64,000 nucleotides of DNA from the human T2T-CHM13v2.0 reference genome, Homo sapiens. The notes beneath the pieces are model-generated. The model was not told where the DNA came from, did not search any database, and saw nothing but the letters and a program-made list of their open reading frames with translations. The stretch lies in the NCBI RefSeq assembly GCF_009914755.1, contig NC_060936.1; one strand, written 5' to 3'. Shown piece by piece: positions 5,401-43,800 of this stretch (within the stretch, counting starts at the first letter, position 1; every line of letters begins with the position of its first letter). Position numbers and translations under genes: made by a program.

Positions 5401-7116
5401 CTCCTTGTGCGTGGGCTCTCCCAGCCCAGCCAGAGGCAGATGTTCAGCTTATCTGGGGTCTCCGGCCCTCCTAAGTTGCTTTCATGTCTGAATCTCTACT
5501 ATCTCAATCACAGCATTGTCCCAGCAGCAGAACAAGCATTCTCAAGTTGCAACCTACAAATATATCATTCCCTTGCTTAAAACCCTCAGGTGGTTCCACA
5601 TCACCCTCAGGGTCAAGTCCATATTCCTTATCACACTCTTCATAATGTGCCCAGCCCTCCTGGCTTCCTTCTTTACTCATACAGTGATGTCGTAAACCGA
5701 AGGTCTCCCATTCCCCAGACAAGTTCTACCATGCTGCACGTGCTGTCTCCCTAGATTGCCTTTTCCCCACCTCCATCTGAAAACTCCTACTCATGCCTCA
5801 CCACCCTACCTCACTGTCGCTCCGGGTGAGCTTCCCCTGCTCCTCTAAGCTTAGGAAGTCTCTGCTTCCCAATACCTTCCTACCACTTTGTTCCTCAGTG
5901 ATTCTCAAACCTGAGTGTACATCAGCATCACCTGGAGAGCTTGTTAAAATGCAGGGTGCTGGGCCCTGCTGCAGAGTCTCTGATTCAGTTGCTCTGGGGT
6001 GGAGCCTGAGAGTGTGCATTCTAACAAGCGTCCAGGTGACGTTGCTGCTGCTGGTTCCAGGGCCACCTTTGAGAACCACTGCTCTAGGGCACCGTGACCT
6101 CCAGCTGCCTTGCCTCATAGGCTGTGTGTGTTACGGACTGAGTCTGAGCTTTCAGGGGACACAGGAGGAACAGCTGGGTCGCATGGCAGTCTAGATGCCC
6201 CAGGCTGTCAAGGGCATCTCCTTCGCCTAGCTTCTAAGTCTCACAGGCTGTCACTCTGCTACTTCTCAACTCAGAGACCGCTCTCATTGCTTCCTGGACA
6301 CCTTCCTGGGCTAGGCTGCTGGCTCCTCTCACCCCTCCAACCCTGGTCCCTTGCCTCTGATGTCCAGGCTTTGTCCAGTTCCTCCCTGGGCTATGTCTGC
6401 ATCCTGGGGAGGTGTCCTGCCTTCGTCTGCTTCAGACAGGGAGCACCCCAAGGACAATGAAGGCGGGGGAAGGAAGGGGCTCTACGGCATGAGCAAGCCT
6501 TATGGGCCCAGCACCTGGGGAGCTTTCAAGTTGTTTACCTGGTGTCTGATTTTGCTGGGAGAAAATGATTTCTTGCTCTCAGGCAAATTGAACCACAAAT
6601 TAGGGCAGTGGCTCCCTCCTGAGTCCTTAAAAGGGGAGCCCAAGATCAGCTTTCTCCAGAAAGACCCACCTTGTCAATGAAGGAGGCGAACTTGTTGTTC
6701 AGCACCTTGATCTGCTCCCGCTCCTGGGCACGCACTTTCTGGATTTCAGGGTCCAGCTCCACATTCAGGGGTGCCAGGAGGCTCTTGTTGATGGTGACCT
6801 GATGGATACCCCCGGGCGGGCACAACGACGGACACACGGACCCCAAGGCCACACTGCCAAACATGCTGCCAGCAAAGCCACTGGCCCGGCCCCGGCCAAA
6901 TCCATAGCCTCCTGCCCACCCACTGCCACTGGCCACATTGAAAGAGATGCTCCGGGCACCCCCCAGGCTGTAAAGGCTCCGACTGCTGAAGCCTCCACTG
7001 AGCCCTTTGCCCCCTGCTCGGTAGGAGGATGAGCTGCCCCCTGAGAGCACAGCGGAGCAGCCGCTGAAGCCCCCCTTGGCAGCAGCTCCCGACTTGTAGG
7101 TGAATTGGCGGCTCAT
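2280..7116 (-). CDS. KRT73: Keratin 73 (type II, inner root sheath K71-74 group), exons 1-5; complement(join(2280..2444,3171..3266,3871..3931,4758..4972,6670..7116)); gene continues left of the window
   Basis: Head [27 protein letters not shown], helix-initiation motif [11 protein letters not shown]|[15 protein letters not shown]; exon sizes 447/215/61/96/165 are canonical for type II keratins; all four internal introns are GT-AG. Confidence 0.95.
3171..3266 (-). CDS. KRT73: KRT73 exon 4 (96 nt)
   Basis: catag|[32 protein letters not shown]|gtaagg. Confidence 0.95.
3871..3931 (-). CDS. KRT73: KRT73 exon 3 (61 nt)
   Basis: ctgcag|G TAT GAA... [20 protein letters not shown] |gtgagg. Confidence 0.95.
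3959..3981 (+). repeat. (TG)n microsatellite in KRT73 intron 2
   Basis: gtgtgtgtctgtgtgtgtgtgt, ~25 bp from the exon 3 acceptor. Confidence 0.8.
4758..4972 (-). CDS. KRT73: KRT73 exon 2 (215 nt)
   Basis: ttccag|GTGCGG...[20 protein letters not shown]...VVEDYKKR, ends AAGAG|gtgagc. Confidence 0.95.
5896..6081. mobile_element. MER5A-like hAT-Charlie MITE
   Basis: Terminal inverted repeats CAGTGATTCTCAAA...TTTGAGAACCACTG, ~186 bp, internal 'catcacctggagagcttgttaaaatgcag' typical of MER5A. Confidence 0.85.
6488..6648 (+). repeat. Inverted duplicate of the KRT73 proximal promoter (partner arm 7182-7344) in intron 1
   Basis: Hand alignment to the reverse complement of 7182-7344 gives ~139/163 identities; 6534-6577 is the exact reverse complement of 7255-7298 (44 bp). 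Confidence 0.93.
6670..7116 (-). CDS. KRT73: KRT73 exon 1 coding part (head + start of coil 1A)
   Basis: ATG at 7116 in accATGa context; ends ...FASFIDK followed by donor GTGGGT (GT at 6669-6668). Confidence 0.95.
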
Positions 7117-7181
7117 GGTGGGGAGGCCAGAAAGTGGGGATAAGATGCTGACCCTTAGCTGAGATGCAGTTCACCAGCCTG

Positions 7182-7344
7182 TGATCCTGGGCTCCCACTT
7201 TATAGGACTCAAGAGGGAGCCATGGGCCTAATTTGTGGGTTCAGTTTGCCTGGAAGCAAGAAATCATTTTCTCCCAGCAAAATCAGACACCAGGTAAATG
7301 ACTTGAAAACTCCCAAAGTGCTAGTCTTGCAAGTCTTGCTCATG
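7182..7344 (-). promoter_or_regulatory. KRT73: KRT73 proximal promoter (second arm of the inverted repeat flanking exon 1)
   Basis: Contains the TATA box; reverse-complement homologue at 6488-6648. Confidence 0.8.
7198..7204 (-). promoter_or_regulatory. KRT73: KRT73 TATA box (TATAAAG)
   Basis: Plus-strand ctttata = TATAAAG, ~85 bp upstream of the ATG, the typical keratin spacing. Confidence 0.8.
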
Positions 7345-8701
7345 TAATTTGAGTTTTATCTAATGAACATGTGTAATTAGCATGGGCACATTATCCATAG
7401 AAAGATCTTAGGTGGGAGGTTTGTCGCAGTCTCAATTGCTGTTCCCCAGGGAGTGGTGGGGCCTGGGATTGTAGGGGTACAGAGGGGAGACCTTTAATTG
7501 ACAGTGTCATCTGTTAGAAATCTCACAACCATGCCAGCATCAGATGGGCTGCTTCAGGGACCCTGGCTGAGCTGCTTTTATGTGGTTAAGAAGAGGCTGC
7601 TGCTGCCTGGCTTCCCAGAGTTCCTGGAGACAGGTTTGATGGCTGGCCAGGGCCATAGGAGAGGAGCACACTGGGAATCCAGGACCAGCCTCTGGCTGCC
7701 AGCCCCCTGCTGTGCCCTCCCAGGCAGCTCTCCTGCTCCTCTGTGCCAGCCGGGCTGCCCTGCTCACCTTCCTTTGCACACACTGACTTCTTTTTCCCTT
7801 TACCATCCCACTACCCTGACTCTTGACCTTGAAATTATGGTCATTGCACCATTCACGATGGCTGACACTGGTGCAGCACTTTACAGTGTAACAGAGCTCC
7901 TCACACAAGAAGCTCATTTAATCCACTTAGTCTGCATGGAGGGGAATGGTGATGATCCACATTACACAAATGGGGAAACCAAGGTTCAGATAATTGAGGA
8001 TGTCATTCCTTTAGCAAACATTTAGTGAGTCCTTTCTTTGTGTGAATCCCAGAGAATGAAAATGCCCCCAAAAAGCACAGGCCCCAGCCTTGAGGACTCC
8101 CTTGGCTGGTCTTCTGACTCCACATTCAGAGCTATGCCCGCCTTATTCATTCGTCCATCTATCCGTCCAACCAGCCAGCCAGCCATCTACTTGTTCATTC
8201 ATTTATCCATTCGTTTAACAGACTTCTCTTGAGGGCTGACTCTCTCCCAGGTACTGTGCTAGGCTCTTGGGTCCCGAATTATGAAGACCAAACCTAGCTC
8301 ACAATTTTGGAGATGGGGAGGTAGGGGCAGACATTTGAATTTCATGGATCCTTGACATTGCCAAAGTATGTGACCCAAGAGTTTCCCAAATCCCAAATCC
8401 CAAATATATCCATAGTATAGAATTTCCTCCATAAAAACACAAGTATTTCACTAGCTGGAGTACTTGAATGAACAGTTGGCCCATCCTTCTTTTCTATTTC
8501 TGTATAGAGGTTATGATATGCCTCTAAAATTGTTGTACTAAGCAATTGCCAAATTCAACCTCCCCTCTGTTTTATACAATATGGTTGTTTTCTAGTTAAG
8601 AATAATCATTTTCTTTGATGTCTTCAATTTCACTAAAGGCAATGCCACTTGGAAGTCCTTTAATCTTTTTTAGCTAACACGAAGTTCTATTCCTTTTTTT
8701 C

Positions 8702-8995
<294 letters not shown>

Positions 8996-10911
8996 CAAAG
9001 TTTCTATTCCTTTGTAAGTTTCTTTGTAAGGCACAAAGAAGACCAACAAAACTGCATTGTGATGAGAATGCTTAGTATTCCAGCCAGAATCACTCCCTAA
9101 TTGGCTCATTTCAGCACACCAGCACTGGGGTGGAGGTGATTCAGGCCTGCATCTCAGCAAAACTACAAATTGCTGCATGTCACAGGCCCTGAGATAACCC
9201 CCAATGGCATTTATGCTGTGAATGCCAACTCTGCAGTATGGCGTGGATGTGCTTACGAGCAAACAGCCCCTCTCCTTATGGTTTTCACTTCCCCTCCCCT
9301 CCCTGGCCTTCTCATCTTGTGAACCTGCCACAGAGGCACTTCCGGAAACCTTCTCTGATCACTTTCCTAATCCAATCACACCTCTCTTCCCAGCCTCCCA
9401 CATGTTGTTTGTTGTCCAAACAACAGCATCTATTATGTCAATTGTCTCTTCTAATTTGATGTCTCTACCTGTGTTCAGGAGGTATGTCAATCTTTCCTAA
9501 CGGCCAGAAATTTTCCTGAGGACAAGATCCAGGTCCTATCCTCCCTTTGGTCCTCTCTACTCACTTCCCAGAACTCCAGTGGCAAAGGACTCTCAGGCAG
9601 TCATGGACTAGGCTAAAAAACTCTTAGGTGCCCTTTGAAATCATTCTCCCTAAGAACAGTATCCCTAGCACCTGTCATTGAAATGCCTCTAAGTGGGTTT
9701 TCACACAGTGAGCTCCTTATATTTCACATCCCTTATATTGCCCTCACCAGGGGAAACTCAATGCCAGATGAACCCAATTACCAAGTCAGCCCCACTTCCC
9801 ACAGTGGGGCTGTCCTGCCATTAGCCTCTGCCCAGACACTAGGGCAAGAGTTTCTGATGGTTTCAGAAAAGAGAGAAAGAAAGAGGGGGGGGGGGAGAGA
9901 GAAAGAGAGAGAGAGACAGGCAGGAAATCAACTTTCTGTCACCCCCAGGGGCAATCAAATAAATATTGTGAAATCAGTATTCCCTATGTGGATATTCCAC
10001 AACTAGAAAGATGAAGTAGACATACTTTTCCCTTCTTCACAAACATAAGAAGACTCTGAAGCGTAGAGAAGAAGGCACACCAACAGGGACCTCAGGACCC
10101 AGTGAAAGACATGATGATTATTTCTCTAGGTTTTCTATTTGTCTCCTATATTCCAGACTTGGGGCAGAAGAAGGCAGGTATCTGGAAAGGCTCAGATTTT
10201 TAAAGATTAAACAAAAGCTTGATCTCTGTAGCCACATCATCAGGAAAGGGGCAGCCTAGCAAGATGGAAAACTTACAGAGAATAATCGCTCTATTCCATC
10301 TCAACACACAGAAAATACTATGGTTTCACCTACACCCACATCAGCAAAAGCTGAGTGTGAGGCCTAGACCTTCACACTCACCAGGCTATAATGAGGTGCC
10401 CCAACTGCCCCCTCCCCCAGCAGTTAGATGGAATCAGGGAAGTCCAAGAAAGAAGCCGGGATTCCATCCCCACCAGGAGGTAACAAGTGCCTGACCCACT
10501 TGGTACCAGTGGAGACCATGTGGGGAGCCCAGACTTCCACCCTCACCTGGCAATAACAAGGTAGCATCCACACCCTTTCCCCTGCAAGGACAATGTCAGA
10601 AGAAGGCAGCCAAAACAGAAGATTTAAACAATATCCAGAATCTCATAATAGTACCAAAATGTCCAAATGTTTATTTAAAAAATCACTCATTGTGCCAAGA
10701 ACAAGGAAGTCCTCAAATTGAATGAAAAAAAAAGACGATTGATAGATGCCAATACTTAGATGACAAAGTTGTTAAAATTATCTGACAAAGATTTCAAAGC
10801 AGCCACAATAAACATGCTTAAATGAACAACTAAGAACATGCTAAATAGATGACAAATTAGACAGTTTCAACAAAGAAATTAAAAAACCAGAAGAACTAAA
10901 TGAAAGTTTTA

Positions 10912-11381
10912 TTTATTTTTTATTTTTTTATAAACATCCCCAACTTGCTTGTTTTATTGGAGAAGAGGACATGGAATAAACATCTGGGATGTGAGTCTGG
11001 GAAGAACCCCCTCTCCTCCCCATACATGCCTACTGCCCCAAACTAAAAATAACCAACTCTGGGAGAGCAGCTGAGACAGCAACTGGGGGCAGAAGAAGGA
11101 GACACGGAACTGGAGGGCAGTGGTGAAGAGACCACACGTGTGCTGGGAGGGCCCAGAGGCAGTGACAGCATGAACAGTGCAAGTACAAGTCTCTGTGCCT
11201 TCCCTGGGGTTGTGTATAAATATATAGAAATGAGGCCTTCTATCCCATTTCTCTCCCTTCCGCTCCTTGCTGCCTGCCACAGTCCCAGCTCCTCTTTCCA
11301 CACGAGGGCGAAGGGAAGTGGAGGATGAACAAGTCATCACTGAATTGCGATCAGACCCACATCCATCAGCTTCTGGATCTT
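10912..11381 (-). pseudogene. 5'-truncated processed pseudogene (retrocopy) of STIP1/HOP: last 14 codons + 3' UTR + poly(A)
   Basis: Minus strand 11381-11337 reads KIQKLMDVGLIAIQ*, matching the recalled STIP1 C-terminus KIQKLMDVGLIAIR*; AATAAA at 10958-10953; A-rich tail 10912-10930; 15-bp TSD taaatgaaagtttta (10897-10911) / taaatggaagtttta (11382-11396). Confidence 0.88.
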
Positions 11382-13299
11382 TAAATGGAAGTTTTAGAAC
11401 TAAGAAATATAATAATCAAAATAAAAAACTCAATGGATACACGTAACAGGAGAATAAAAGGCCAGAGGAAAGAATCAGTGAACTGGAAGAGAGGACAATA
11501 AAAATTACCCAATCTGAATAATAAAGAGAACTGAACAATAGACTGAAGAAGAATAAAATGAACCAAGTCTCAGGATCAGGGAGACTCTAACAAAAGATCT
11601 AACAGTCAAGTCACTGGGGTTCAGAAGGAAAGGAAAAGAAGTATTGCTGAAAAATAACTCAAAGAAATAAGGAATAAAAATTCCCCAAATTTGGCAAAAG
11701 ACGTAAACCCACAGATTCAGGAAGCTGAGCAAACCCTAAACAGAATAAACCCAAAGAAATTCATACCTAGACATATTATAGTCAGAATTCTGAAAACTAC
11801 AAATAAAAACCTGAAAGCAGCTAAAGAGAAACAATGCTTTACCTTTAGGGAAAAAACAATTTGAAGGACAGAAGATTTCTCATCATAAACTATGGAGGCT
11901 AGCAGGGAGTGGCATAGTTTTCAAGTGCTGAAAGCAAAGAACTGTTGATGCAGAATTCAGTGCCCAGTAAAAATATCCTTCAGGAATGAAGACAAAATGA
12001 AAACATTCTCAGATGAAGAAAAACTAAGAATGTGTTTCCAGCAGGCCTACCCTAAAAGAATGGCTAAAGTAAGTTCTCTAAACAGAAAGAAAATGATAAA
12101 AGAAGACAACTTGAAACATTAGGAAGGAGGAAAAAACATGATAATTTTTAAAAAATAAGTTAATACAATAGACTTTCCTTCTCTTGAATTTCCTATAAAT
12201 TATGTTCAATGGTTGAGGCAAAAATTCTAACACTGTCTGATGTGATTCTAAATGTATTTAGATGAAATATTTAAGAAATTATATTATAAATGAGAGACGG
12301 TAAAGGAATATAAAGAGGTAAGGATTCTTCAACTGATAAAATAATGATAGCAATAGACTGTGATAAGTTATGTATATATAATAAAATACTCAGCAGCACT
12401 AAAAATGCTATACAAAAACGTTTACTAAAAGACACAATACATAAATCAAAATGGATTCTTAAAAATGTTCAAGTAACCAACAGGACAGTAGGAGAAAAAC
12501 ATAAATAGAAAAAAGAGAACAATTAGAAAACAAAAATTTAAATGGCAGCTTAAGCCCTAATATATCAATAATTATGTTAAATATAAATGGCCTAAATGTA
12601 CCAATTAAAAGACAGAGATTGGCGGAGTATATTTTAAAACATGAACCAACTATATGCTATCTCCAAAAACTTATCTCAACTATAAGTGTCTAGATTAACA
12701 TCAGATAAAGTATACTTCAAAGCAAAAAAATTATGAGACAGAGAGAGACAGTGTATAATTTAAAAAGACCAATTCACCAAGAAGAAATAGTGATTTAGTA
12801 AGAAGACATTCCTAATGTTTATACACCAAACAAAAGAGTTGCAAAATATGTGAATGAAAGACTGATGGAACTAAAATATTAGATAGACAAATCCACAATT
12901 ATAGTTAAGGACTCCAATATTCCTTTCTCACAGTCAATAGAACAATTAGCAAGAATATTATCAAGGATATAAAAGAACTTAACAGTACCATCAACCAACA
13001 GGATCTAATTGATATTTATAAACATTCTACCTAACAAAAGCAGAATAAATATTCTATTCAAGTGCCCACAGGACATATACCAAGATAGGCCATACTCTGG
13101 GATATAAAATAAACCTCAACAAGTTGTAAATAACTTAAACCATACAGAGTATGTTCTCTAGCCAAAATAAATAAACTGAATGTAAACAAAGGAAAGATAA
13201 CAGGATCTATCCAAACACTTATTAACTAAACAATATACATCTAAATAACTCATGGGTTGAAGAGGAAGTCTCAAAAGAAAATTTTTAAAGCACATTATT

Positions 13300-13381
13300 T
13301 GCAAATACATTCACATTTGGAGGTAATGGGAGTTAGGACTTTAACATATCTTTTTTGGAGAATGCAATTCAACCCATAACA
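13300..13381 (-). mobile_element. MLT1 (MaLR) LTR 5' fragment inside the L1
   Basis: Reverse complement starts tgttatgggttgaattgcattctccaaaaaagatatgttaaagtcctaactccc, the typical MLT1 LTR start. Confidence 0.65.
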
Positions 13382-14724
13382 GAAACAAAAAGCACAAGCG
13401 ACAACAAAACAAAAAAAAAAATAGATAAATTGGACCTCAACTAGTTTCTGACAGAGTCAAAAATAATTCAGTGGAAGAAAGTTAGCCTTTTCAACAAATG
13501 ATGCTGAAGTAATTATATACAAATAGGCAAAACAAAAAATCTTGATTTAAGTTTCATATTTTGCACAAAAATTAACTCAAAATAGATCACAGACTTAATT
13601 GACTATAAAATGTAAAACTATAGAACTTTTAGAAAAACAAGAGGGGAAATCCTCAAGATAAAGGGTAGGTAAAGAGGTGTTAGATTTGACATCAAAAGCA
13701 TAATCCATATAAGGAAAAATCTACTGGACTTCATCAAAATTAAAAACTTTGTACTGCAAAAGACCTTGTTAAGGAGGATGAGAAGACAAGCAATGGACTA
13801 GGAAAAATTATTTGCAGACCACATATTCAGCATAGGACTAGGATCTAGAATACATAATGAACTCTCAGAACTCAACAACAAAAGAACAAGCAATTGCATT
13901 AGAAAATGGGCAAAAACATCACAAGACTTTCACTGAATAGTTCATACCGATGGCAAATAAGCACACAAAATGAAATTCAACATTAGAGAAATACAAATTT
14001 AAGCCACAATGAGATATTACTCAACACCTATCAGAATGGCTTAAATAAGACTTAGTGGCAACACTACATGCTGGCAAGGACCCAGAGAAACTAGAGCACT
14101 CATATATTGCTAATGAGAATGTAAAATGGCACAGCCACTCTGGAAAACAGTTTAGCAGTTTTTAAAGAACCAAACAAGCAACTCTCATACATCCCAGCAA
14201 TTACAAACCTGATCATTTATCCCAGAGAAATGAAATCTATGTTCACACAAAAACCTGTATGCAAACATTTATAGCAGCTTTATTTGTAATAGCCAAAAAA
14301 TGCAAACAATCCAGGTGCCCTTCAATGGGTGGCAAACCGTGGTACATTCATGTCATAGAGTACTACTCAGCAATGAAAAGAAATAAACTATCACTACATG
14401 CAATGACCCATGTGAATCTCTAAAGAATTATACTGAGTAAAAAAAAAAATCCTCAGGGATTGTATGATTTGTATATTGTATGATTCCATTTATGTAATAC
14501 TCTCAAAAAGATTCCATTTATATAACATTCTTGAAATACAGAAATGGGGAACAGATTAGTAATTGCTTGGGGGTTAAACAGAGTGTCACAGGAGAGAAGT
14601 GGGTGTGTCCAAATGAGGACAACATGAGGGAAATTTGTGATGATGGTAATGTTCTGTATCTTAATTGTATAAATGTCAATATCCTGGTTGTGATATGCGA
14701 TAGTACATCTTGCAATGTTTACTG

Positions 14725-14940
14725 AGCACATTAATAAATTAAGCATGTATATGACAGGTACTGTTCTGAGCACACTAATCTTCAAAATAACCCCATCAAG
14801 AAGGTTCAGTTAACACACAGTTTATGGATAAGAAAACTGAAGCACAGAAGGTTAAGTTACTTGCACAAGGTCACATAGCTAGAACCAGGACTGGAAGCCA
14901 GGCAGCCCACTGCAGAGTCCATCCTTTTAACCACTACTGC
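14725..14940 (-). mobile_element. MIR
   Basis: 'gaaaactgaagcacagaaggttaagttacttgcacaaggtcacatagctag' MIR core. Confidence 0.7.
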
Positions 14941-15387
14941 CTGAAATCTTTCTAAAATCCCTACTTTCCCTGACCCTGAGATTCTTATTGAAAAGGTCTG
15001 GGTCAGGTCTTGAGCTTGGAGAGTTTCTTAAACTTCCTCATATTGTTTTCATCAGAGCCTGAACCCACTCTCAGGAGTTGTGCCTTTTAACAGCACAATC
15101 AGGAGCAAGATACCACAACTCGTATCCCTCTGACCAGAGCTTAGTTTCATGGCCATAGTTATTTTCAAGGGAGGCTGGGAAATGTCATCTTTGGGTGGCT
15201 GGCCATGTGCTCATCTAAATTTCTACTTCTGTGAAAGGAGAAAGGATAAGGGGCGGGGTGGGGAGGCACCCAGCAGGCTCAGCTATGCTCTGCCTGCTAG
15301 GTAAGCAAGCATTCTTGCCATTGTGTCTAATAGTCCACTGCTCAAAGCTGCAGCATGGAGTCCAAATCTGGGAAGGCAACGCAGCCA

Positions 15388-15500
15388 TAGGATGACCAAC
15401 ATTTTCCATTTGCCTGGGCTTATTGGGTTCTCAGGATGTAGGACTTTCAGTTTTAAAACTAGGAAAGTTCCAGGCAAACAGGAACAAGGTGGCCACTCTA
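15388..15500. mobile_element. MER81-like hAT-Blackjack MITE
   Basis: TIRs taggatgaccaac...ggtggccactcta, 113 bp, internal ggactttcagttttaaaactaggaaagttccaggcaaac. Confidence 0.7.
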
Positions 15501-16483
15501 CCCGGAAGGGCTCTCTTGTCCTGATCTTGCCCCACCCACCTGTCCTGCCACATCTCTCTGCAAGCTCCACCAGACTGCAGTTTCTTATGCTCTTGTCAAT
15601 CTCCTTTTCTTTCATTTGACCATTTCAACCATTTATGGTGCACCTACTTATGTGCCCAGCACTGCTCTGTTCACAGTAGATACAGCACCTCTACTTAAAC
15701 ACTCCCTTCCCCTTGGCTAACTCTTCATCTTTCAGGTTTCAGGTTTCAGCTTTGAGAAATCTTCATCAAGGAAGTCTCCCTTATCCTCCTAATCTGGGTC
15801 TCTTGTTCCTGAGATGCTCTTCCCAAGATAGCATCTGTCTCACTATACTGTGCACCTTCACTTACCTGCTTCCCAGTAGCCAGAAGTCTTGATCACCCTT
15901 TTGTATTAGTGTTGAGAACAATCTGGCACATAAATGGTTGTTGAATGAATGCATGCTGCCTCTTCAGAAGTGTAGGAGTGGCTCAAAGGCAGGACCTGTG
16001 CACCATTATCCCTGGCTATCTTCCTCCCCTTGCTGCTCAAAACAGAGCTCACAGCAGGGAACTTTTGACAAGACCTGCCTTCCAATACAACACCTCTGGA
16101 CTCCAAGTGCAGTGCTGGACTGGAAACTGCCTTCTGAGCAAAGCAGGAGACGAAACAGGAGAGTTGCCCTTGTGACCCAAGCCCCCAGGCTGCTTTTCCC
16201 ACTCCACACCCTCTGGCCATTTAGTTACCTGATAATAGTCCTCCTAGCAATAATGATAGCAACACTATTACCCTGCAATTAGCCAATAATAACACCAGCT
16301 TGGCCACCAAACAAGGCTCAAGGCCTGAAGTTATTGCTGTAAAAACGGAAGCTGAGTTTTCCTAATAGAGAGAGGAAACAAGGGTCCTTTGTGCCAACCT
16401 TCCAAAGCCAAACAGGAATAGCACCCCTTCCAGTGTTCCCTCCTGTCAGCACAGACAGCCAAGCAAGGATAGAACAGAATGAA

Positions 16484-16521
16484 CATGTGTGTGTGTGTGT
16501 GTGCACATGTGCACATGTGTG
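16484..16521 (+). repeat. (TG)n/(TGCACA) alternating purine-pyrimidine repeat
   Basis: catgtgtgtgtgtgtgtgtgcacatgtgcacatgtgtg. Confidence 0.8.
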
Positions 16522-19500
16522 CCTTGCAGGATGGCAATCTGGGGGTAGTGAACAATACTCAGGGAAGATCTTATTAGTGAATATTTTTAAAGTTTCCAAA
16601 CAGAATAAATTCCCCATGAAGTTTATTGGAGAGGTGTGGGAGAGAGGGTAAGGTGGGAGTGGGCAACCCTTTAAAACAAAACACAGGATGCAAGATCTCC
16701 TTCATAAACTGGAGGGCTCCAGGGCTCTAGTCACACCCCTCATAGCCCAGCAGGTCACATTGGACATCATTTCAAACTAGACTCTGCCTGAAGTATGGCC
16801 CTTGTGATGGATTTGCTTCTGCTATGTTTTTATACTCATTCCGGCAGAAGGGGAGACACCTGAACCCAGCCCACCCTCAGGTTGCTCTCCAGGTGGATAA
16901 TCCACCTGGCTTTCTCAGGGAATGGGGTGGGGCCGGGCTGGCACACTTTCACCCTCCCAGTCCCCATAGATCTTCCTCTCTCCTCCCTTTTGTGGCCACC
17001 CAGGGTCTACGAATCCGTGGAAGGCAGAGAGTCCCTCTGCCTTAGAATAGGTCATAGGAGGCCTTGTAAAATGAAACAAAAACAACTTCTTGCTAAACAT
17101 GGTTGCAGATAATCAGTACCATGGCTGACATCCACTAAGGTGGATAACTGAGAATTGATAGTAATCATGTTTCAAAAGGTGTTTATGCATGCCCTTACTT
17201 CAGTACCAGAGATAGGAGAAGAGCTCTTGCTTCTGCATCACAGAAGGAGACAGTGTGGGCTAAGAGCACTACGAGCCTGCAGGGAGAGACAAGGGAGAAG
17301 GTGACTGACACCAAAGGCCCACTGAGAGGGGCTTTCTTCTGGGGCCTGGCATTTGGATGCATGAGGGAGAAAAGAAAAAGAATTTGTTTTGACCCAAAAG
17401 CCCATCTCCACATTGCCACAGAAGACAAAAAGGTGGGGGTAGAGCCAGAGCAGGTATGCGTGCTCAGGCAGACAGATACCAGGAGAGAGCAGGGCCAGAA
17501 GATTGGCCTTTGCCTCTGGGAGGGAGACCCACAGGTTTCTGTGCCCTGAGTTGGAGACCTGGACTCTCATTAAACTTGACTCCTCATCTCCCAAGTCAGG
17601 ACCAGCATGTGCAGGATTCCTAGCTTGAGGTCTGGACCCTCCAGCTGGCCCCCAAGGACCTGGCAGCCCTGGACACGAACCTGGATGCTGCACCAGATCC
17701 TCAGGGGATGGTGCCCCCTCTCAGGAAGTCTCTGTTCCCTGAGCAAAAGCCAGACATAGTGGCCTGAGAGCTGAAACAGTGCTTGACACCACAGCTGTGG
17801 GGAGACAGCTCTGTGCACCCCCACACCCCTTCTACATCCCTGAATATCCATCTCACACAGCATGGAGGGGCACCTTCTTGAAGTGTCCCATGAAGGAACA
17901 GTGGCCAGGGCTCCCACACCACCCACTGTCTGGGCCATGTGTCCACCACAGGCAGCAAGGGCCCTGAAGGCAGGGTCTCCCCTTCCCCCACGTGGATGCA
18001 GCGTGAGTTTCTACACGGAAGAGGAACCCTGCAGCTCCTATACTGTGGAGGAGGAACCTCCACAGGGCCACGGACAAATAGTGACCTGCCCAAGGCCACA
18101 CAGCCAATGCCTACAGAGCAAGTTCAGGGCCCCAGGGCCCCAGCTGCCTGGCCAAAGGCTCCTTCCTTTTACTCTCAGGAAAAGGGAAGGTTGGATCCTG
18201 ACCGCACAGCAAATCCACCCCCACCTATGTAGAGCAGCTCATGTTGTTGGTGACTTCTCTAGATTGCCTGTTCGCATGAAAACAGAATAATCAGTAGATC
18301 CTCTCACGGGGCTCAGAGGAGAACAACGTCAGAGGAAAGGATACCTCAAGTCTGCTTCATAATTCATAATTCAATCTCAGCTGGGAATCGCATCAACTCC
18401 TGTATAGAGTAACAAGAGCAGCCCTTCTCAATCTGTTCCCCTTGCTCACCCTCCCAACCCACAGTCGCCTCATGGCCACTGTTCCTAGACTTGCACAAAC
18501 ACTCACACTCTCCCAGGCCCCTCAACCTGTATGCCTTCCACCCTTTCCAAGCCCGGGATCAATACAGCCGTGCCTGGACCAGGTGAAACCAAGGAAAACT
18601 ATAACTTGTCTCCCAGCCTTTCTCAACAGCAGGGAAATCCCCACCCTTTTCCCTCTTGTTCAAGTGAGGGAAAGTCTAGAGGGTAAAGCAGTGCAGCATA
18701 CAGGGCCAGGATCAGTGCTCATCACGTGCACCCTGGTCAAAGGCCCTGACTGGACAGCACTGCTGAACGAAGCCTGAGGCACATTTCAGGAATGAATGAG
18801 TTAATCAATTGCCTATCATACAGATGGGAAGGTTGACAGAGTGCCTGCCACGACGGAGTGCAGTGAGGACCCTTGCCTATCCTGTCTCCTCTGGGTCACC
18901 CACCTGCACGCCTGGCCCTCCAGGGCCACCTTGATGCTCATCAGCTCCTGGTACTCACAGAGCAGCTGGTCCAGCCTCCACCTCAGCCAGCTTGTCCTGG
19001 GCATCTCCGATGGCTACCTTGCCCTTCTGCTCTGCCTCCAGGATGGTGTCTTGCAGGGCAGCACTGTGCCGAGGGCCAACAGTAGGCAGTGAGTGGATCA
19101 CGAGAGACCAGGTACCTTCCTGCACCCACCTATGCTTGTCTCTTCTCCACCCTCTTTCCCACCCTTATTGTGGGAAATGTGAGAATATAGAAAAATTGGA
19201 AAAAAAATCTATCTTAACCCCACTCTCCCCCCTCCAAAGGCTACCACTGCTGAGTTGGGGTCCCATCTGTTTCCTGAGGTTGGTGATTTCTGCCTGAAGT
19301 CTCTGGGTGGCTCAGTTCAGCTCATCGACCTCCATCTAAATGGCTTTGAGGTCCTCACCCTTCCTCCTGTCAGTGACCTGGAGCTTCTGGTACAGGAAGT
19401 GGGGGAAGGCAAGAGTGAAAAGATAGCACAGAGAGAGTGAAAGCAGGGCTCCTAACCCCAGATCTCTAAGCCTCGGTCAACCAAGACTTTTATGTCCTGG

Positions 19501-20141
19501 CCAGGCTGGTCACTGTGGCCAAAACCAACACACAGAGGAGACATATTCCTGTCTGCTAGGAATGTATAGTCCAGCTGAGAAAACAAAACAGTCCTATGTA
19601 ACATACTTACGTAACTATCAAAGATCACCTAGCCAGTTCCTAGACAATAATATGGAATGCTCTGTCCCAGTCAGATCTTGATGAAAGAGATAGTAACATA
19701 GACAATCCATAGTGGGAGGAAGATATCCACTATTTTATGTGTGGACCTAGAAGCGTTATTTCTACCAAAGAACCACCTTAAATCATTTTCCACCCAGATG
19801 AGTATTAGGAACGTCAGGCTTCCCAGAGATGGGCTTCCATGCACTGTGGAGGTGGGAAGGCATTGGGGAGCCAGTGGAGGCAGAAGGAAGCCAGCCTGAG
19901 TTGAAATATTGGCCAGCACAATGTGTGGAATGAGGAGCTGACTGCACTGGTGTGAAGGCTGCTTGGTGTTTCTCAATGCACCTGAGTCTGCAGAGTTGAG
20001 ACGGCTCCCCTGACCCAGGACCAGCAAGACCCCAGGAAGCCAGAGCCCCAGTAACTTCCAGTGGCCTAGCCGAAGCCTTTCACCAGATGTATGAGGTTAG
20101 GCAACCCTTCCAGCCACAGGGCAAATGGAGCAGGTCAACCC

Positions 20142-20597
20142 TGCATGCAGGATACTTCTCTGGGTGACCTTGGACCGACCCAGTCCTCCCTGCTCTCTCA
20201 CTTGTAGTTCTCAAGAATAACTGCAGGATGTTCTGGGAATGCAGCATGCTGAGATAAAGGGGTCAGAGCAGCTGGGGTGCTGTTCTGGTTTCCCCTAGAA
20301 ACACAGTGTCCTTCAATGCTTTAGCCCAGCACATCACATTCCCTTGGGGTATAAGACTCTGGGCAGGCTGCTTTTCAGGGTTCCTTAGCTGTAGTGTAAG
20401 TGGGATACATGACTCCATCCACTCTGGGCAGCTTTTCTAGGCTTTGGGGACCCACTCAACATGAATCCTGGGCTTCTGTTGTTCTTTGCTGTCTGGAAGC
20501 AATAAATATTTTTCCTGTAACTTGTTGCATGTGAGTGTGGTCTGCCTCGCTGGACTCAGACAAGTTAGTAACCTCTGGACAGTGAGCCTGCTTCACA
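20142..20597 (+). mobile_element. Solo LTR, MER54-like (ERVL class), in pseudogene intron 5
   Basis: TG...CA ends, 5-bp TSD AACCC (20137-20141 / 20598-20602), TATAA at 20350-20354, AATAAA at 20501-20506; sequence resembles the recalled MER54 consensus. Confidence 0.75.
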
Positions 20598-33577: not shown

Positions 33578-40725
<7,148 letters not shown>

Positions 40726-40800: not shown

Positions 40801-43800
40801 CCTGCCAACTAGGTGTTGTGTACATGGGTGTGGATCCACTTATACGTGGGTTTGGTCTGCCTGGGAGCTATTCCTGGTGCGTGATTATCAAGCTAATAGC
40901 CATTAAAAATCTACTAATCAGCTCCATCCCAGAACTTGCTTTGATTGCAAACTTCTGTTTATCTGGGCATCTGTCATGCAATTTGATTTTTGTAAAATCA
41001 TCAAAAGAGGAGATCAGGGTTTGGGTTTCTCAATCTGGAAAAGGACCTTCTGCAGAATGCTGCTCCCTGTTCTGGACCTGCCCAAGGGAAGTCAGCTACC
41101 ACCCATGCTTGTGCAGGCTCACCACCCCAGTTCAACAATGAAAGGGATGGTGGGTTTAGAGACTGCAAGAGCCCCTCAATGCCAGCCTTGTAGTTCTCTT
41201 GTAGTTTCCCTCTTTCCCAGAAAGAGCCCCAACTAGTGCAGGGGAGACTGCAAAGGTCTTAAATGACCTTAAATGCTAATTGGAAATCGACCTCCTCTTA
41301 CAGAAAGTAATTGGCCTCGGATACTGCAAAAGAGGTGTCGATTTTCAAAATATCTTGGCTCTTTTCTTCCCATGCCACACCAAAAATACACAATAACTAG
41401 GCACCGAATAGAGATTTTTTATAACCATGATGGTTTGTATAACCATCAACTGTCCCTTGTCTACATGAACACCCAGAGGTTGAGAGGTATGAGAAAAGTT
41501 TCGCTGTTTCTGGACCTGTGTGATGCGGGACACCAAGTGAAAGTTTGCAAACCAAGATCCAAGTGTATATTGATTCAGTCAGTCAGTAATCACGTATTGC
41601 CTGGTGATCCTGGGAAGTGATTAGGAAGTCAGGCTCTTCAATGACATCCACAGATGCTTGAGGATAAGAAGACCATCCAGCCTGCACAGAGCACTCACAC
41701 TTAAACTCAACCACTTCCTCTGTCCATGTGGCCAACTATGTGGGAGAGGTTCTTGGAGTAATAAAACTGAATTTAGTCAGAAATTCTGGGTTTGAGTCCC
41801 AGTTTTGCTATTTATTGGCTGTGAGGCCTTGAATGAAACCCTGAGGCTCTGTGGTCCCAGCTATAAAATGGGAAATTCGTATGAAGTGTTTTGAAAACCA
41901 CCGTGCACAATAAAATGTCAGTATCATTATTGTTTGGGGTGAGACAAAGATAATTCCTTTTCCTTTCCCCCTTGCCATGTTACTGTCTTCTGGCTACTAT
42001 GAACATGCACTCTCCACAGGCATCATAAATTACAGAACCAGGTGGTTCAGATCCTAGTACCAAGTTATCACAAAATAATGTAAAAAACATAAGTTTGAGG
42101 TCAAATCCCAATTTTCTTGTATCTTAGTTAAATGACCTCAGATAATCCATAATCCTCTTCAAGCCTCAGTTTCCTCATCTATAAAAAGTGAACAAGAATA
42201 ATAAGAATATGGCTACTGTGAAAACAGAACAATACACACATGTGCTAAACACAGTTCCTAGTTCATAGCAGAAACTCAATAAATGCTATTCACCCTTCTG
42301 CATCTTCCCCGCCAAGTTTCCAATCCTGTCTTAACTACTATTCAAGGTATTTAATTTGCAGTAAAAGAATGCTGAAGGAAACAAAGCTACATGTCTCCTC
42401 AATTATTTTTTCCAATCTGGTTTGCATAATTATAATCATGCAAACAAATCATGAAGCTAACAGCTTTGGAGACAGTCTCAATCCAAAGCAAAATGTGTCA
42501 TTATCTACAGATATCTGAGCAATGCCCTAGTCGTCCCTTACTCCACCATGACTGTGCTCACACTATGGCAGCTTCAGGGGGGTCTTAATGCCTCTATGAA
42601 GGAAATTGAGCCAGATTTGTGCTAGGCACCCAATCTGCATGTTTTACTGCATTTTAATTCTGCCCTCACACCCTGGTCTCCCTCCCCACTCTCTCCACTG
42701 AACATCTTCTCCTTCTAGACCCATTCACCAATTTTTGAAAGTCAAGTTGAAAGAGTCCTCCTACTCTTTTGAAATGTGGAGACTAGAATTAATGCAATTT
42801 GAATATTATGTAACATTTTATTTCTATATTTTTAAATTTTCAACTTTTACATAATCTCAATGTGCTTTCCTAGATAATATGCTTTGCATTCTTTAAGAGA
42901 GTGAAATGGAAGTTAAGAATCTTGGTCTGGTTGTGATTTTGCCTCTACGCAACTGGTATCCTCAATTTCTTCATCTATAAAATAGGAATATTTATCCTGA
43001 ATCCCTACTGTCCCACAAGGACATCGAGCTATTGCTGCAAAGAGTGTTAAGCTTCACTGTCTCTGAGAAGAGAACAGGAATCCTATAGAACAAAATCCTT
43101 CTTCCTGTTCCCCACTTTTTCTTTCAACAAACTGCCAGCAAGTCCAAGATCCTAAATGCTTCTCCTCATAGTGTTTCAAAAGCTCGTCTATTGGCCAGTG
43201 GGGCAGAAAAAATGAGCCCCCAGTATTAAGCAGAGAAGGGGTTAACTGTCTAGCCAACAGGAAATAAATGCTCAACCTAGTGTGGATGCTAACACCAGAG
43301 TCTCCAGGTAAGAATTCATTTCCCTCTCTTCTGTTCTCCTTTAGCAGTGGCGTATCTACCTGCCTTACAGCCTCATCATCACAGTCCTCCCTGTGTGACA
43401 ATGAACCATGTCCCAGGACTTCTGTAGGGTAGAGGCAAGGTCATATTTATCTTTAACCCAAACCTTTATCCCCTCAGCACAGAGAATCACTTGAAGAATA
43501 AGCCTGTATTCCAAAAAAATCATTTCTCTGGTTTTTGGTTTGGAATTGCAGGTGTTTCCAGATGTGTGCATGTGATGCTGGCAATGCTTGAAGTCTTCGC
43601 AGCCTTTCATGGACCTGTTGCCTAAAGGTCCCACTTGGAGTTGTCTCAGGTTTCTGTCTCAGCCCTGATCAGGGTTCTCTCCTCCAGCCAGTGAGTTTAG
43701 TCTCTCCTTCCCAAAGACTCAGTGCATCAGCTGGAGACGGCTGCTGAGCCCTCGGGGCATCTGGCTCCTACCACCTTGGAATGGAAACCAAGAGTTTGGG

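What the first reader, a model, noticed from the sequence alone, without database searches (positions are those of the whole stretch)
6488..7344. KRT73 exon 1 is bracketed by an inverted copy of its own core promoter (convergent mirror promoter)
Seen: 6488-6648 (intron 1, ending ~20 bp from the exon 1 donor) is the reverse complement of the proximal promoter 7182-7344. Hand alignment gives ~139/163 identities with a 44-bp perfect core (6534-6577 vs 7255-7298: tttacctggtgtctgattttgctgggagaaaatgatttcttgct). The copy includes the TATA region (gagtccTATAAAGtggg becomes gagtccTTAAAAGggg at 6627-6633) and a TAATT homeodomain-type site. It is not a recognisable transposon, and homology stops just short of the presumed TSS. 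Inference: the copy faces + strand, so its TSS-equivalent (~6655) would launch an antisense RNA across the exon 1 donor and exon 1. It would use the same factors as KRT73 itself, which could give co-regulated self-attenuation by polymerase collision or antisense RNA. Alternatively it is a duplicated intronic enhancer. I am not aware of a description of this structure.
Basis: partly seen in the sequence, partly recalled or inferred. Interest (0 to 1): 0.88.

Follow-up and report, generated by a model that had tools for sequence, protein, structure and literature searches.

The report
Inverted KRT73 promoter copy in intron 1
A 161-base stretch just inside the first intron of the hair-follicle keratin gene KRT73 is a real, one-off, back-to-front copy of the gene's own proximal promoter, most likely an old copying accident that is slowly decaying rather than a working mirror promoter.

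Summary
Window 6488-6648 (KRT73 intron 1, 21 nt from the exon 1 donor) is the reverse complement of 7182-7344 (the proximal promoter). 139 of 163 aligned columns are identical, with a 44-bp perfect core.

The human reference holds only these two copies. None of 19 other type II keratin genes has such a repeat, and none of 60 random chr12 genes has an unmasked one of this size.

The promoter arm is the original. It lines up with the KRT71 promoter, and that homology continues upstream past the arm's boundary. The intron arm is therefore a derived, KRT73-specific inverted duplication and not a transposon.

The copy lacks the upstream homeobox/GATA-like module, has a damaged TATA box and no copied start site. 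It carries more derived changes than the promoter arm (11-13 against 3-5, depending on the alignment). RefSeq lists no + strand transcript or regulatory element there.

My best reading is a decaying relic of a templated inverted insertion, with one patch possibly kept identical by gene conversion. Enhancer or antisense-promoter activity is not excluded. I had no non-human genomes and no expression or chromatin data.

The parts
6488..6648 (+). Intron-1 arm: the derived, inverted copy of the KRT73 proximal promoter. Its + strand reads like the promoter's sense strand. It lies at intron positions +22 to +182 after the exon 1 donor.
   Evidence: 139/163 columns identical to 7182-7344 reverse-complemented; one of only two copies in the genome
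7182..7344 (-). Promoter arm: the native KRT73 proximal promoter, -31 to -193 relative to the RefSeq 5' end at 7151. This is the ancestral copy.
   Evidence: 71% over 178 columns to the KRT71 promoter, E 2e-21; the KRT71 homology runs on upstream of 7344; TSS 7151
6534..6577 (+). 44-bp perfect core, intron arm.
   Evidence: longest identical run is 44; P = 0.006 if the 24 differences are placed at random
7255..7298 (-). 44-bp perfect core, promoter arm. Only its 3' part (the GAGAAAATGA.TTCTTGCT block) is shared with KRT71.
   Evidence: core against KRT71 is 30/44, no better than the arm as a whole (100/151)
7199..7204 (-). TATAAA box of the native promoter. Its first T (7204) is 53 nt upstream of the RefSeq 5' end.
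6627..6633 (+). Degraded TATA equivalent (TTAAAAG) in the intron arm.
   Evidence: a one-base deletion plus two adjacent substitutions relative to the promoter arm
6593..6604 (+). CCACAAATTAGG homeodomain-type site kept in the intron arm.
   Evidence: the same motif lies at 7227-7238 (- strand); KRT71 and KRT72 carry a close variant in the same alignment columns
7227..7238 (-). CCACAAATTAGG site in the native promoter.
7345..7382 (-). Upstream promoter module (TAATTA ... CATTAGATAAAAC ... CAAATTA) conserved with KRT71 and KRT74. It lies just outside the duplicated segment, so the intron copy lacks it.
   Evidence: alignment columns 57-88; (the distal flank of the intron arm is 13/60 identical, i.e. 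random)
6670..7151 (-). KRT73 exon 1 (CDS 6670-7116), the 533-bp spacer region bracketed by the arms. The donor GT is at 6669-6668.
   Evidence: NM_175068.3
6502..6505 (+). Four adjacent substitutions in the intron arm (ATGG where the promoter arm and KRT71 both have GCAA). They destroy the CTTGCAAG block that KRT71 and KRT73 share.

Best explanation
A single old mutational event copied about 163 bp of the KRT73 proximal promoter, from just upstream of the start site back to about -190. It inserted the copy in inverted orientation 21 nt inside intron 1, roughly 530 bp away. This is a templated inverted insertion of the kind produced by replication or repair template switching. The upstream arm remains the working, selectively constrained promoter. 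The intron arm is a by-product with no promoter role, and it drifts. It has lost the TATA box and the CTTGCAAG block, and it never received the start site or the upstream homeobox/GATA-like module. The 44-bp stretch of perfect identity is best explained by an arm-to-arm gene-conversion patch or by local constraint. What is shown: the structure, its uniqueness, which arm is the original, its KRT73 specificity among human paralogues, and the lesions. What is inferred: the template-switch mechanism, the age, the gene conversion and the lack of function. From 22 substitutions in 161 aligned bases (JC distance about 0.15, my arithmetic on the counts) and recalled mammalian neutral rates, the age is tens of millions of years, roughly 35-120 Myr.
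For: Only two copies exist in the genome (2 candidates, 2 scored). The same tool returned 396 candidates for a real dispersed hairpin repeat 450 bp away. The boundaries are sharp (13/60 and 14/60 identity in the flanks). The promoter arm is collinear with the KRT71 promoter, and that homology extends beyond the arm, so the intron arm is the copy. Among 20 type II keratin genes (exon 1 +-2 kb) only KRT73 has an exon-1-bracketing inverted repeat. With KRT71 as outgroup, derived changes in the intron arm against the promoter arm are 13:3 (binomial p = 0.021), or 12:5, 11:5 and 12:5 in three other alignments. Differences between the arms are as frequent at positions conserved between the KRT73 and KRT71 promoters (13/100) as at variable ones (7/51) (my division of the and 13 counts), so the copy does not spare promoter-critical positions. 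The TATA box is degraded and a four-base cluster has destroyed a conserved block. RefSeq has no + strand transcript, CAGE cluster, promoter or enhancer at the arm. Neither arm contains a CpG, so the divergence is not inflated by CpG decay. Template switching as a source of local inverted copies is described in PMC7954356 (abstract read).
Against: A 44-bp perfect run among 24 differences is unlikely under uniform decay (P = 0.006), and its 5' half is not deeply conserved (the whole core is 30/44 identical to KRT71). Something beyond drift acts there, either gene conversion or selection on both copies. Three promoter blocks shared with KRT71 survive in the copy: TTTCA.GT, GAGAAAATGA.TTCTTGCT.(C/T)CAGGCAA and CCAC.AATTA. 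The rate asymmetry depends on the alignment (12:5 gives p of about 0.14). RefSeq functional elements are sparse and contain no hair-follicle inner-root-sheath data, so their silence is weak evidence. No orthologous sequence was available, so neutrality was not measured. No junction microhomology or target-site duplication was seen that would prove the mechanism (read from the sequences).
Confidence: 0.6

Rival explanations
1. The intron arm is a working, orientation-independent regulatory module: a 'shadow' copy of the proximal promoter acting as an intronic enhancer or a transcription-factor sink. It would bind the same inner-root-sheath factors through the retained homeodomain-type site and the GAGAAAATGATTTCTTGCT..CAGGCAA block.
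For: The blocks shared by the KRT73 and KRT71 promoters are largely intact in the copy. The 44-bp perfect core exceeds chance (P = 0.006). Homeodomain factor Dlx3 binds and controls other inner-root-sheath keratin promoters in mouse (Krt25/Krt28; PMC9833667, abstract and passages read).
Against: Derived changes in the copy hit positions conserved between KRT71 and KRT73 as often as variable ones (13/100 against 7/51). The CTTGCAAG block is destroyed and the upstream module is absent. None of the 3 other inner-root-sheath paralogues (KRT71, 72, 74) has or needs such an element. No RefSeq enhancer is listed.
Confidence: 0.2
2. One reading: the copy is a convergent 'mirror' promoter that fires on the + strand at about 6655. 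It would send an antisense RNA through the exon 1 donor and exon 1 and attenuate KRT73 by polymerase collision or antisense pairing, under the same factors as KRT73.
For: The orientation and position are right. About 85% of the -31 to -193 promoter region is retained. Antisense promoters in first introns are a known phenomenon (PMC1865042 and PMC4499130, search listing and abstract starts only).
Against: The TATA box is altered. The start-site sequence itself was not copied, since homology ends at 6648. The conserved upstream module is missing. No + strand RefSeq transcript or CAGE cluster begins there, and KRT73-AS1 spans -1553 to 3897 and ends before the arm. The copy carries more derived changes than the promoter.
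Confidence: 0.07
3. The effect is at the RNA level. In transcripts that start upstream of 7344, both arms are transcribed. They pair into a roughly 160-bp imperfect duplex that loops out exon 1 and its donor, affecting splicing or creating an A-to-I editing or dsRNA-sensor substrate.
For: Folding 6470-7360 (- strand) pairs the two arms end to end: MFE -481.6 kcal/mol, z = -17.5 against 20 shuffles. The Gnomon model XM_054371913.1 has an exon 6670-18399 that contains the promoter arm. KRT73 and KRT73-AS1 signals are reported in blood transcriptome studies (passages; listings), so non-follicular transcription exists.
Against: In the curated transcript the promoter arm lies upstream of the start site and is not transcribed. 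The upstream-starting model is a prediction only, with an implausible 11.7-kb exon. I saw no data on where the blood transcripts start.
Confidence: 0.05
4. Both arms derive from a transposable element, for example the terminal inverted repeats of a DNA transposon, and the promoter resemblance is secondary.
For: None found. The only support is the general fact that most exon-bracketing inverted repeats are interspersed repeats. In 60 random genes, 13 have such repeats and nearly all of them are masked.
Against: Only 2 genomic copies exist, against 396 candidates for a true repeat nearby. The arms are not in the masked-repeat list. The upstream arm is orthologous in position to the KRT71 promoter. 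The 'internal' sequence is a keratin coding exon.
Confidence: 0.01

Closest known systems
Template-switch (templated inverted insertion) mutations in primate genomes (Walker et al. 2021, PMC7954356, abstract read; templated inverted insertions at breaks, PMC11724301, abstract start in the listing)
   Same: An inverted copy of nearby unique sequence, produced in one event, with sharp ends and no transposon involved.
   Different: This copy is 161 bp long and lies about 530 bp from its source, on the far side of an exon. As I recall, the described short-range events are mostly much smaller. This event is old, so junction signatures cannot be read, and no microhomology was seen.
Natural antisense promoters in first introns (the LEF1 antisense transcript, PMC4499130; antisense hotspots, PMC1865042; both known to me only from the listing)
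   Same: The element sits in intron 1 and faces back towards exon 1 and the sense promoter.
   Different: In those cases the antisense RNA is observed and the promoter is not a copy of the sense promoter. Here no antisense RNA is annotated and the core elements are damaged.
Exon-flanking inverted repeats, mostly Alu pairs, that loop out exons in pre-mRNA (back-splicing, A-to-I editing); recalled, not read here
   Same: Complementary arms bracket an exon. The predicted duplex is very stable.
   Different: The upstream arm lies in the untranscribed promoter of the curated transcript. Exon 1 has no upstream acceptor. The arms are unique sequence, not Alu.
Arm-to-arm gene conversion in genomic palindromes such as those of the Y chromosome; recalled, not read here
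   Same: Inverted arms with a tract of perfect identity inside otherwise diverged sequence.
   Different: The scale is 161 bp rather than kilobases to megabases. Conversion is inferred here from one 44-bp run only.
Competing opposed promoters acting as probabilistic switches in Ly49/KIR genes; recalled (a KIR promoter paper appears in the listing, not read)
   Same: The concept of a sense and an opposing promoter using shared factors.
   Different: Those elements overlap and are experimentally active. They are not duplicates bracketing a coding exon.

Membership tests
Interspersed repeat / DNA transposon with terminal inverted repeats | Many dispersed copies in the genome | tested here: not met
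   2 candidates, both scored, namely the two arms. Positive control: a hairpin repeat at 5915-6052 gave 396 candidates, 40 of which were scored.
Interspersed repeat / DNA transposon with terminal inverted repeats | Annotated or masked as a repeat | tested here: not met
   the nearest masked stretch of 100 bp or more is 8683-8998. This is weak evidence on its own, because the true repeat at 5915-6052 is also missing from that list.
Interspersed repeat / DNA transposon with terminal inverted repeats | Target-site duplication flanking the element | tested here: not met
   The flanks printed show no direct repeat at 6487/6649 or outside the pair. After this much divergence, the absence is not decisive.
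Local inverted duplication by template switching / templated insertion | Inverted copy of nearby unique sequence with sharp boundaries | tested here: met
   (flanks 13/60 and 14/60 identical)
Local inverted duplication by template switching / templated insertion | One arm identifiable as the ancestral source | tested here: met
   the promoter arm is collinear with the KRT71 promoter, and the homology extends upstream of 7344.
Local inverted duplication by template switching / templated insertion | Derived state: absent from relatives that predate the event | tested here: inconclusive
   Absent from the 19 other human type II keratin genes examined. Orthologues in other species could not be examined, because no non-human vertebrate genomes were on hand.
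Local inverted duplication by template switching / templated insertion | Microhomology at the switch points | tested here: inconclusive
   None is evident in the junction sequences, but erosion is expected at about 15% divergence.
Intragenic antisense (convergent) promoter | Transcription start sites on the opposite strand at the element | tested here: not met
   RefSeq has no + strand transcript or CAGE cluster starting near 6650. This tests the annotation only; raw CAGE, PRO-seq or RNA-seq data were not available.
Intragenic antisense (convergent) promoter | Intact core promoter elements (TATA, initiator) | tested here: not met
   TATAAAG has become T-TAAAAG, and the initiator region was not copied.
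Intragenic antisense (convergent) promoter | Open chromatin, TBP, Pol II or H3K4me3 at the element | not testable with these tools
Intronic enhancer | Retained transcription-factor motifs of the source promoter | tested here: met
   The CCACAAATTAGG site and the GAGAAAATGATTTCTTGCT..CAGGCAA block are retained. The CTTGCAAG block and the upstream module are lost or absent.
Intronic enhancer | Purifying selection on the element | tested here: inconclusive
   For: the 44-bp perfect run (P = 0.006). Against: derived changes of 11-13 against 3-5, and no sparing of positions conserved with KRT71 (13/100 against 7/51).
Intronic enhancer | Enhancer activity | not testable with these tools
   No reporter or MPRA element is listed here in RefSeq.
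Exon-looping inverted repeats in pre-mRNA | Arms able to form a stable duplex | tested here: met
   the arms pair; z = -17.5.
Exon-looping inverted repeats in pre-mRNA | Both arms present in one transcript | tested here: not met
   In the curated NM_175068.3 (5' end 7151) the upstream arm is not transcribed. Only the Gnomon prediction XM_054371913.1 would contain it.

The most novel reading that the evidence does not exclude
The two arms are kept alike on purpose. The 44-bp perfect core would mark a regulatory element needed in both positions, and the intron copy would be an active mirror module (an antisense start site or a promoter-proximal enhancer) that arose by self-duplication of a tissue-specific promoter and now tunes KRT73 output in the inner root sheath. 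That would be a natural example of a gene acquiring a convergent, co-regulated copy of its own promoter.
Probability: 0.1. Interest if true: 0.65.

Novelty: new member of a known kind. Interest (0 to 1): 0.3.

Why it matters
If the copy is inert, it is a clean, datable example of a medium-sized templated inverted insertion of unique sequence. It also serves as a natural experiment showing which parts of a keratin proximal promoter are dispensable once released from promoter duty. If it is active, it would show that a tissue-specific promoter can seed its own antisense or enhancer partner by local duplication, and it would be relevant to how KRT73 dosage is set in the hair follicle. In either case, an inverted pair bracketing the first coding exon is a potential site for rare exon-1 inversion or gene-conversion variants. 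Variant callers also need to know about it, because reads from one arm can align to the other.

Tried and rejected
Transposon origin: rejected.

Shared feature of the inner-root-sheath keratin paralogues: rejected. KRT71, KRT72 and KRT74 have no inverted repeat around exon 1. The intron arm matches KRT73's own promoter (85%) much better than any paralogue's; the best other match is the KRT71 promoter at 64% over 130 columns.

Known RNA family at the arms: none. An Rfam E-value scan of 5500-8500 returned only sub-threshold mir-544 and mir-3174 matches at 5922-6045.

Homology extending beyond the arms: none.

Further weak copies in the window: only chance-level matches, at 20454-20514 (E 0.009) and 40839-40868 (E 0.18).

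Rate asymmetry as proof of neutrality: the first count of 13:3 weakened to 11-12:5 with other alignments, so I treat it as suggestive only.

Background frequency: I planned 100 random chr12 genes but only 60 could be fetched. Of these 60, 13 have some exon-1-bracketing inverted repeat, 1 (XPOT, masked repeats) reaches 100 bp and 80% identity, and 0 are unmasked at that size. Keratin genes and single-exon genes were excluded before sampling.

Literature: 'KRT73' with 'inverted repeat' found 0 papers. 'KRT73' with 'promoter' and 'inner root sheath' found 8 papers; I opened only PMC9833667 and saw nothing about this structure in it or in the other listings. 'KRT73-AS1' found 8 papers, all transcriptome lists judging by their listings. 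These searches cover only the held library. The original gene-description papers may lie outside it.

Supplementary files were not requested. Those of PMC9833667 (Dlx3/Lef1 peak tables for the mouse type II keratin locus) could bear on which factors bind the Krt73 promoter.

The sigma-70 promoter and terminator scan was not used, because it is not applicable to human DNA.

Cruciform extrusion and frequent inversion by recombination between the arms were considered and set aside on general knowledge. The 533-bp spacer is long, and only 44 bp are perfectly identical. This was not tested.
Full report
**What is there.** Three contiguous pieces (6488-6594/7238-7344, 6593-6636/7195-7238, 6628-6648/7182-7202) join into one gapped alignment of 163 columns at 85.3% identity. 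A column count gives 139 identical and 24 different, made up of 22 substitutions and two one-base gaps. The longest perfect run is 44 bp, at 6534-6577 and 7255-7298. RefSeq places KRT73 exon 1 at 6670-7151 on the - strand, with CDS 6670-7116 in NM_175068.3. One arm therefore occupies intron 1 positions +22 to +182. The other occupies -31 to -193 of the promoter relative to the RefSeq 5' end. The arms bracket exon 1 with 533 bp between them. The 60 nt beyond each end of the arms are 13/60 and 14/60 identical, which is the random level, so the boundaries are sharp.

**More than chance, and not a dispersed repeat.** Searching the whole T2T genome with the intron arm gave exactly two candidates, itself and the promoter arm (E = 6.5e-43). 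As a control on the same tool, a 138-bp hairpin at 5915-6052 in the same intron gave 396 candidates. All 40 that were scored matched at 74-82% identity, as expected for a transposon-derived palindrome. The arms are absent from the masked-repeat list, but so is that hairpin, so the copy-number result carries the weight. A sensitive blastn of the promoter arm against the 64-kb window found nothing else above chance. An Rfam scan found no RNA family at the arms.

**Which arm is the original.** The KRT73 promoter aligns with the KRT71 proximal promoter at 71% over 178 columns (E = 2e-21). In the five-sequence alignment this homology continues upstream of the arm boundary at 7344. It runs through a module (TAATTA ... 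ATTAGATAA ... CAAATTA) that KRT71, KRT73 and, more loosely, KRT74 share. The intron arm matches the KRT71 promoter less well (64% over 130 columns, E = 5e-7) and has no homology to that upstream module. The upstream arm is therefore the ancestral promoter in its ancestral place, and the intron arm is the derived copy. Self-comparison of exon 1 +-2 kb in 20 type II keratin genes found an exon-1-bracketing inverted repeat only in KRT73 (1 of 20). The event is thus specific to KRT73 and postdates its split from its paralogues.

**How unusual is it.** I sampled 60 random multi-exon, non-keratin chr12 genes (exon 1 +-1.5 kb). Of the 60, 13 have some inverted repeat bracketing exon 1, almost all inside masked interspersed repeats. 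One (XPOT, masked) reaches 100 bp at 80% identity. None is an unmasked repeat of that size. A unique-sequence pair like KRT73's is uncommon, although a sample of 60 only bounds its frequency at a few per cent.

**State of the copy.** Using KRT71 to polarise the 22 substitutions gives 13 derived in the intron arm, 3 derived in the promoter arm, 4 ambiguous and 2 opposite an outgroup gap (binomial p = 0.021). Three other alignment settings give 12:5, 11:5 and 12:5. The excess of change in the copy is therefore consistent in direction but not robustly significant. The arms differ at 13 of the 100 positions where the KRT73 and KRT71 promoters agree, and at 7 of the 51 where they disagree. The copy does not spare the positions that the promoter has kept.

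Specific lesions in the copy are:
- TATAAAG has become T-TAAAAG at 6627-6633.
- Four adjacent changes at 6502-6505 abolish the CTTGCAAG block shared with KRT71.
- One base is deleted just before the CCACAAATTAGG site.

Retained blocks are the CCACAAATTAGG site, GAGAAAATGATTTCTTGCT..CAGGCAA and TTTCAAGT. Neither arm has a CpG.

**The perfect core.** With 24 differences placed at random in 163 columns, a run of 44 or more occurs in 0.6% of 200,000 trials. The core is only 30/44 identical to KRT71, no better than the whole arm (100/151). Its 5' half is poorly conserved with KRT71, so deep promoter constraint alone does not explain it. A gene-conversion patch between the arms, or KRT73-specific constraint acting on both copies, would explain it. 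I cannot separate the two without other species.

**Transcripts.** No RefSeq transcript starts on the + strand near the arm. KRT73-AS1 (+ strand) runs from -1553 to 3897 and ends about 2.6 kb before it. RefSeq lists no enhancer, promoter, CAGE cluster or other functional element anywhere in window 1-63444. That catalogue is sparse and holds no inner-root-sheath data, so this is weak negative evidence.

The curated transcript does not include the promoter arm. Only the Gnomon model XM_054371913.1, with an 11.7-kb exon 6670-18399, would. If such RNA exists, the arms pair into a long duplex around exon 1 (MFE -481.6 kcal/mol, z = -17.5). Blood transcriptome papers list KRT73 and KRT73-AS1 (passages; listings), but I saw nothing on where those transcripts start.

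**Mechanism and age.** I commit to a single templated inverted insertion. A stretch of the promoter would have been copied from the opposite strand during replication or repair and laid down about 530 bp away in intron 1. This is the class of event described at shorter range in great-ape genomes (PMC7954356, abstract). The mechanism is inferred, because no junction microhomology or target-site duplication is visible, as might be expected after this much divergence. From 22/161 substitutions (JC distance about 0.15, my arithmetic) and recalled neutral rates of about 1-2.2e-9 per site per year, the event is tens of millions of years old, roughly 35-120 Myr depending on whether one or both arms drift. 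Conversion would make it look younger. This is an estimate from memory-based rates, not a measurement.

**Function.** The most likely state is a promoter fossil without a role of its own (about 0.6). Residual enhancer or factor-binding activity is the main rival (about 0.2). An RNA hairpin in upstream-initiated transcripts (about 0.05) and a transposon origin (about 0.01) follow.

**Literature.** 'KRT73' with 'inverted repeat' returned 0 papers. 'KRT73' with 'promoter' and 'inner root sheath' returned 8 papers; I opened one of them, PMC9833667, and saw nothing about this structure in it or in the listings of the other seven. I therefore found no description of it in the held library. Older subscription-journal papers on the gene were not searchable.

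**Limits.** No non-human vertebrate genome, no expression or chromatin data and no population variation were available. The functional verdict therefore rests on sequence anatomy and annotation only.

Noticed in passing
window 5915-6052 (KRT73 intron 1): A 138-nt near-perfect hairpin (RNA MFE -60.8 and -71.4 kcal/mol on the two strands, z about -6.8 to -6.9). It gives sub-threshold Rfam mir-544 matches on both strands (38.1 and 33.1 bits; gathering score 66.5). It belongs to a dispersed family: 396 genomic candidates, 40 scored, 74-82% identity. It looks like a palindromic transposon-derived element, yet it is absent from the masked-repeat list.
   Followed up: partly
window 7345-7382, with L003 (KRT71) and L004 (KRT74) promoters: KRT71, KRT73 and KRT74 share a promoter module with two TAATTA/AAATTA-type motifs around an AGATAA motif, about 200 bp upstream of the start site. 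From memory, these look like homeodomain and GATA sites that would fit inner-root-sheath regulators. KRT72 does not align there.
   Followed up: partly
window 7151-7204: The RefSeq 5' end of NM_175068.3 (7151) lies 53 nt downstream of the first T of the TATAAA box (7204), further than the usual roughly 30 nt. The true start site may be about 20 nt upstream of the RefSeq end, which would put the end of the duplicated segment (7182) within about 10 nt of it.
   Followed up: no
window 6670-20120: The Gnomon model XM_054371913.1 gives KRT73 an upstream start at 20120 and an 11.7-kb exon 6670-18399. It looks like a read-through artefact or a non-follicular transcript.
   Followed up: no
window about 39553-39607 (KRT2 intron 1): A short, almost perfect hairpin with 16-nt arms (CCTATTTCAAGGCAGA / TCTGCCTTGAAATAGG) around an approximately 20-nt loop.
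   Followed up: no
window 40839-40868 (KRT2 promoter, about -69 to -98) and 20454-20514: Weak similarity to the KRT73 promoter arm: 77% over 30 nt (E 0.18) and 68% over 65 nt (E 0.009). The KRT2 match lies at a similar distance from its start site and covers the AATTA/CAGGCAAA part, so it may be a motif shared by type II keratin promoters or just chance.
   Followed up: no
window 6502-6505: Four adjacent substitutions in the intron arm (ATGG where the promoter arm and KRT71 both have GCAA). They look like one multi-nucleotide event rather than four independent changes.
   Followed up: no
L066 232-320 and 2725-2812 (SRSF9 exon 1 region); L045 86-139 and 2131-2207 (PRMT8): Among the 60 random genes, these are the only unmasked inverted matches bracketing exon 1. 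SRSF9 has an 89-column match at 74%. PRMT8 has a short match repeated in many registers, which looks like a simple repeat.
   Followed up: no
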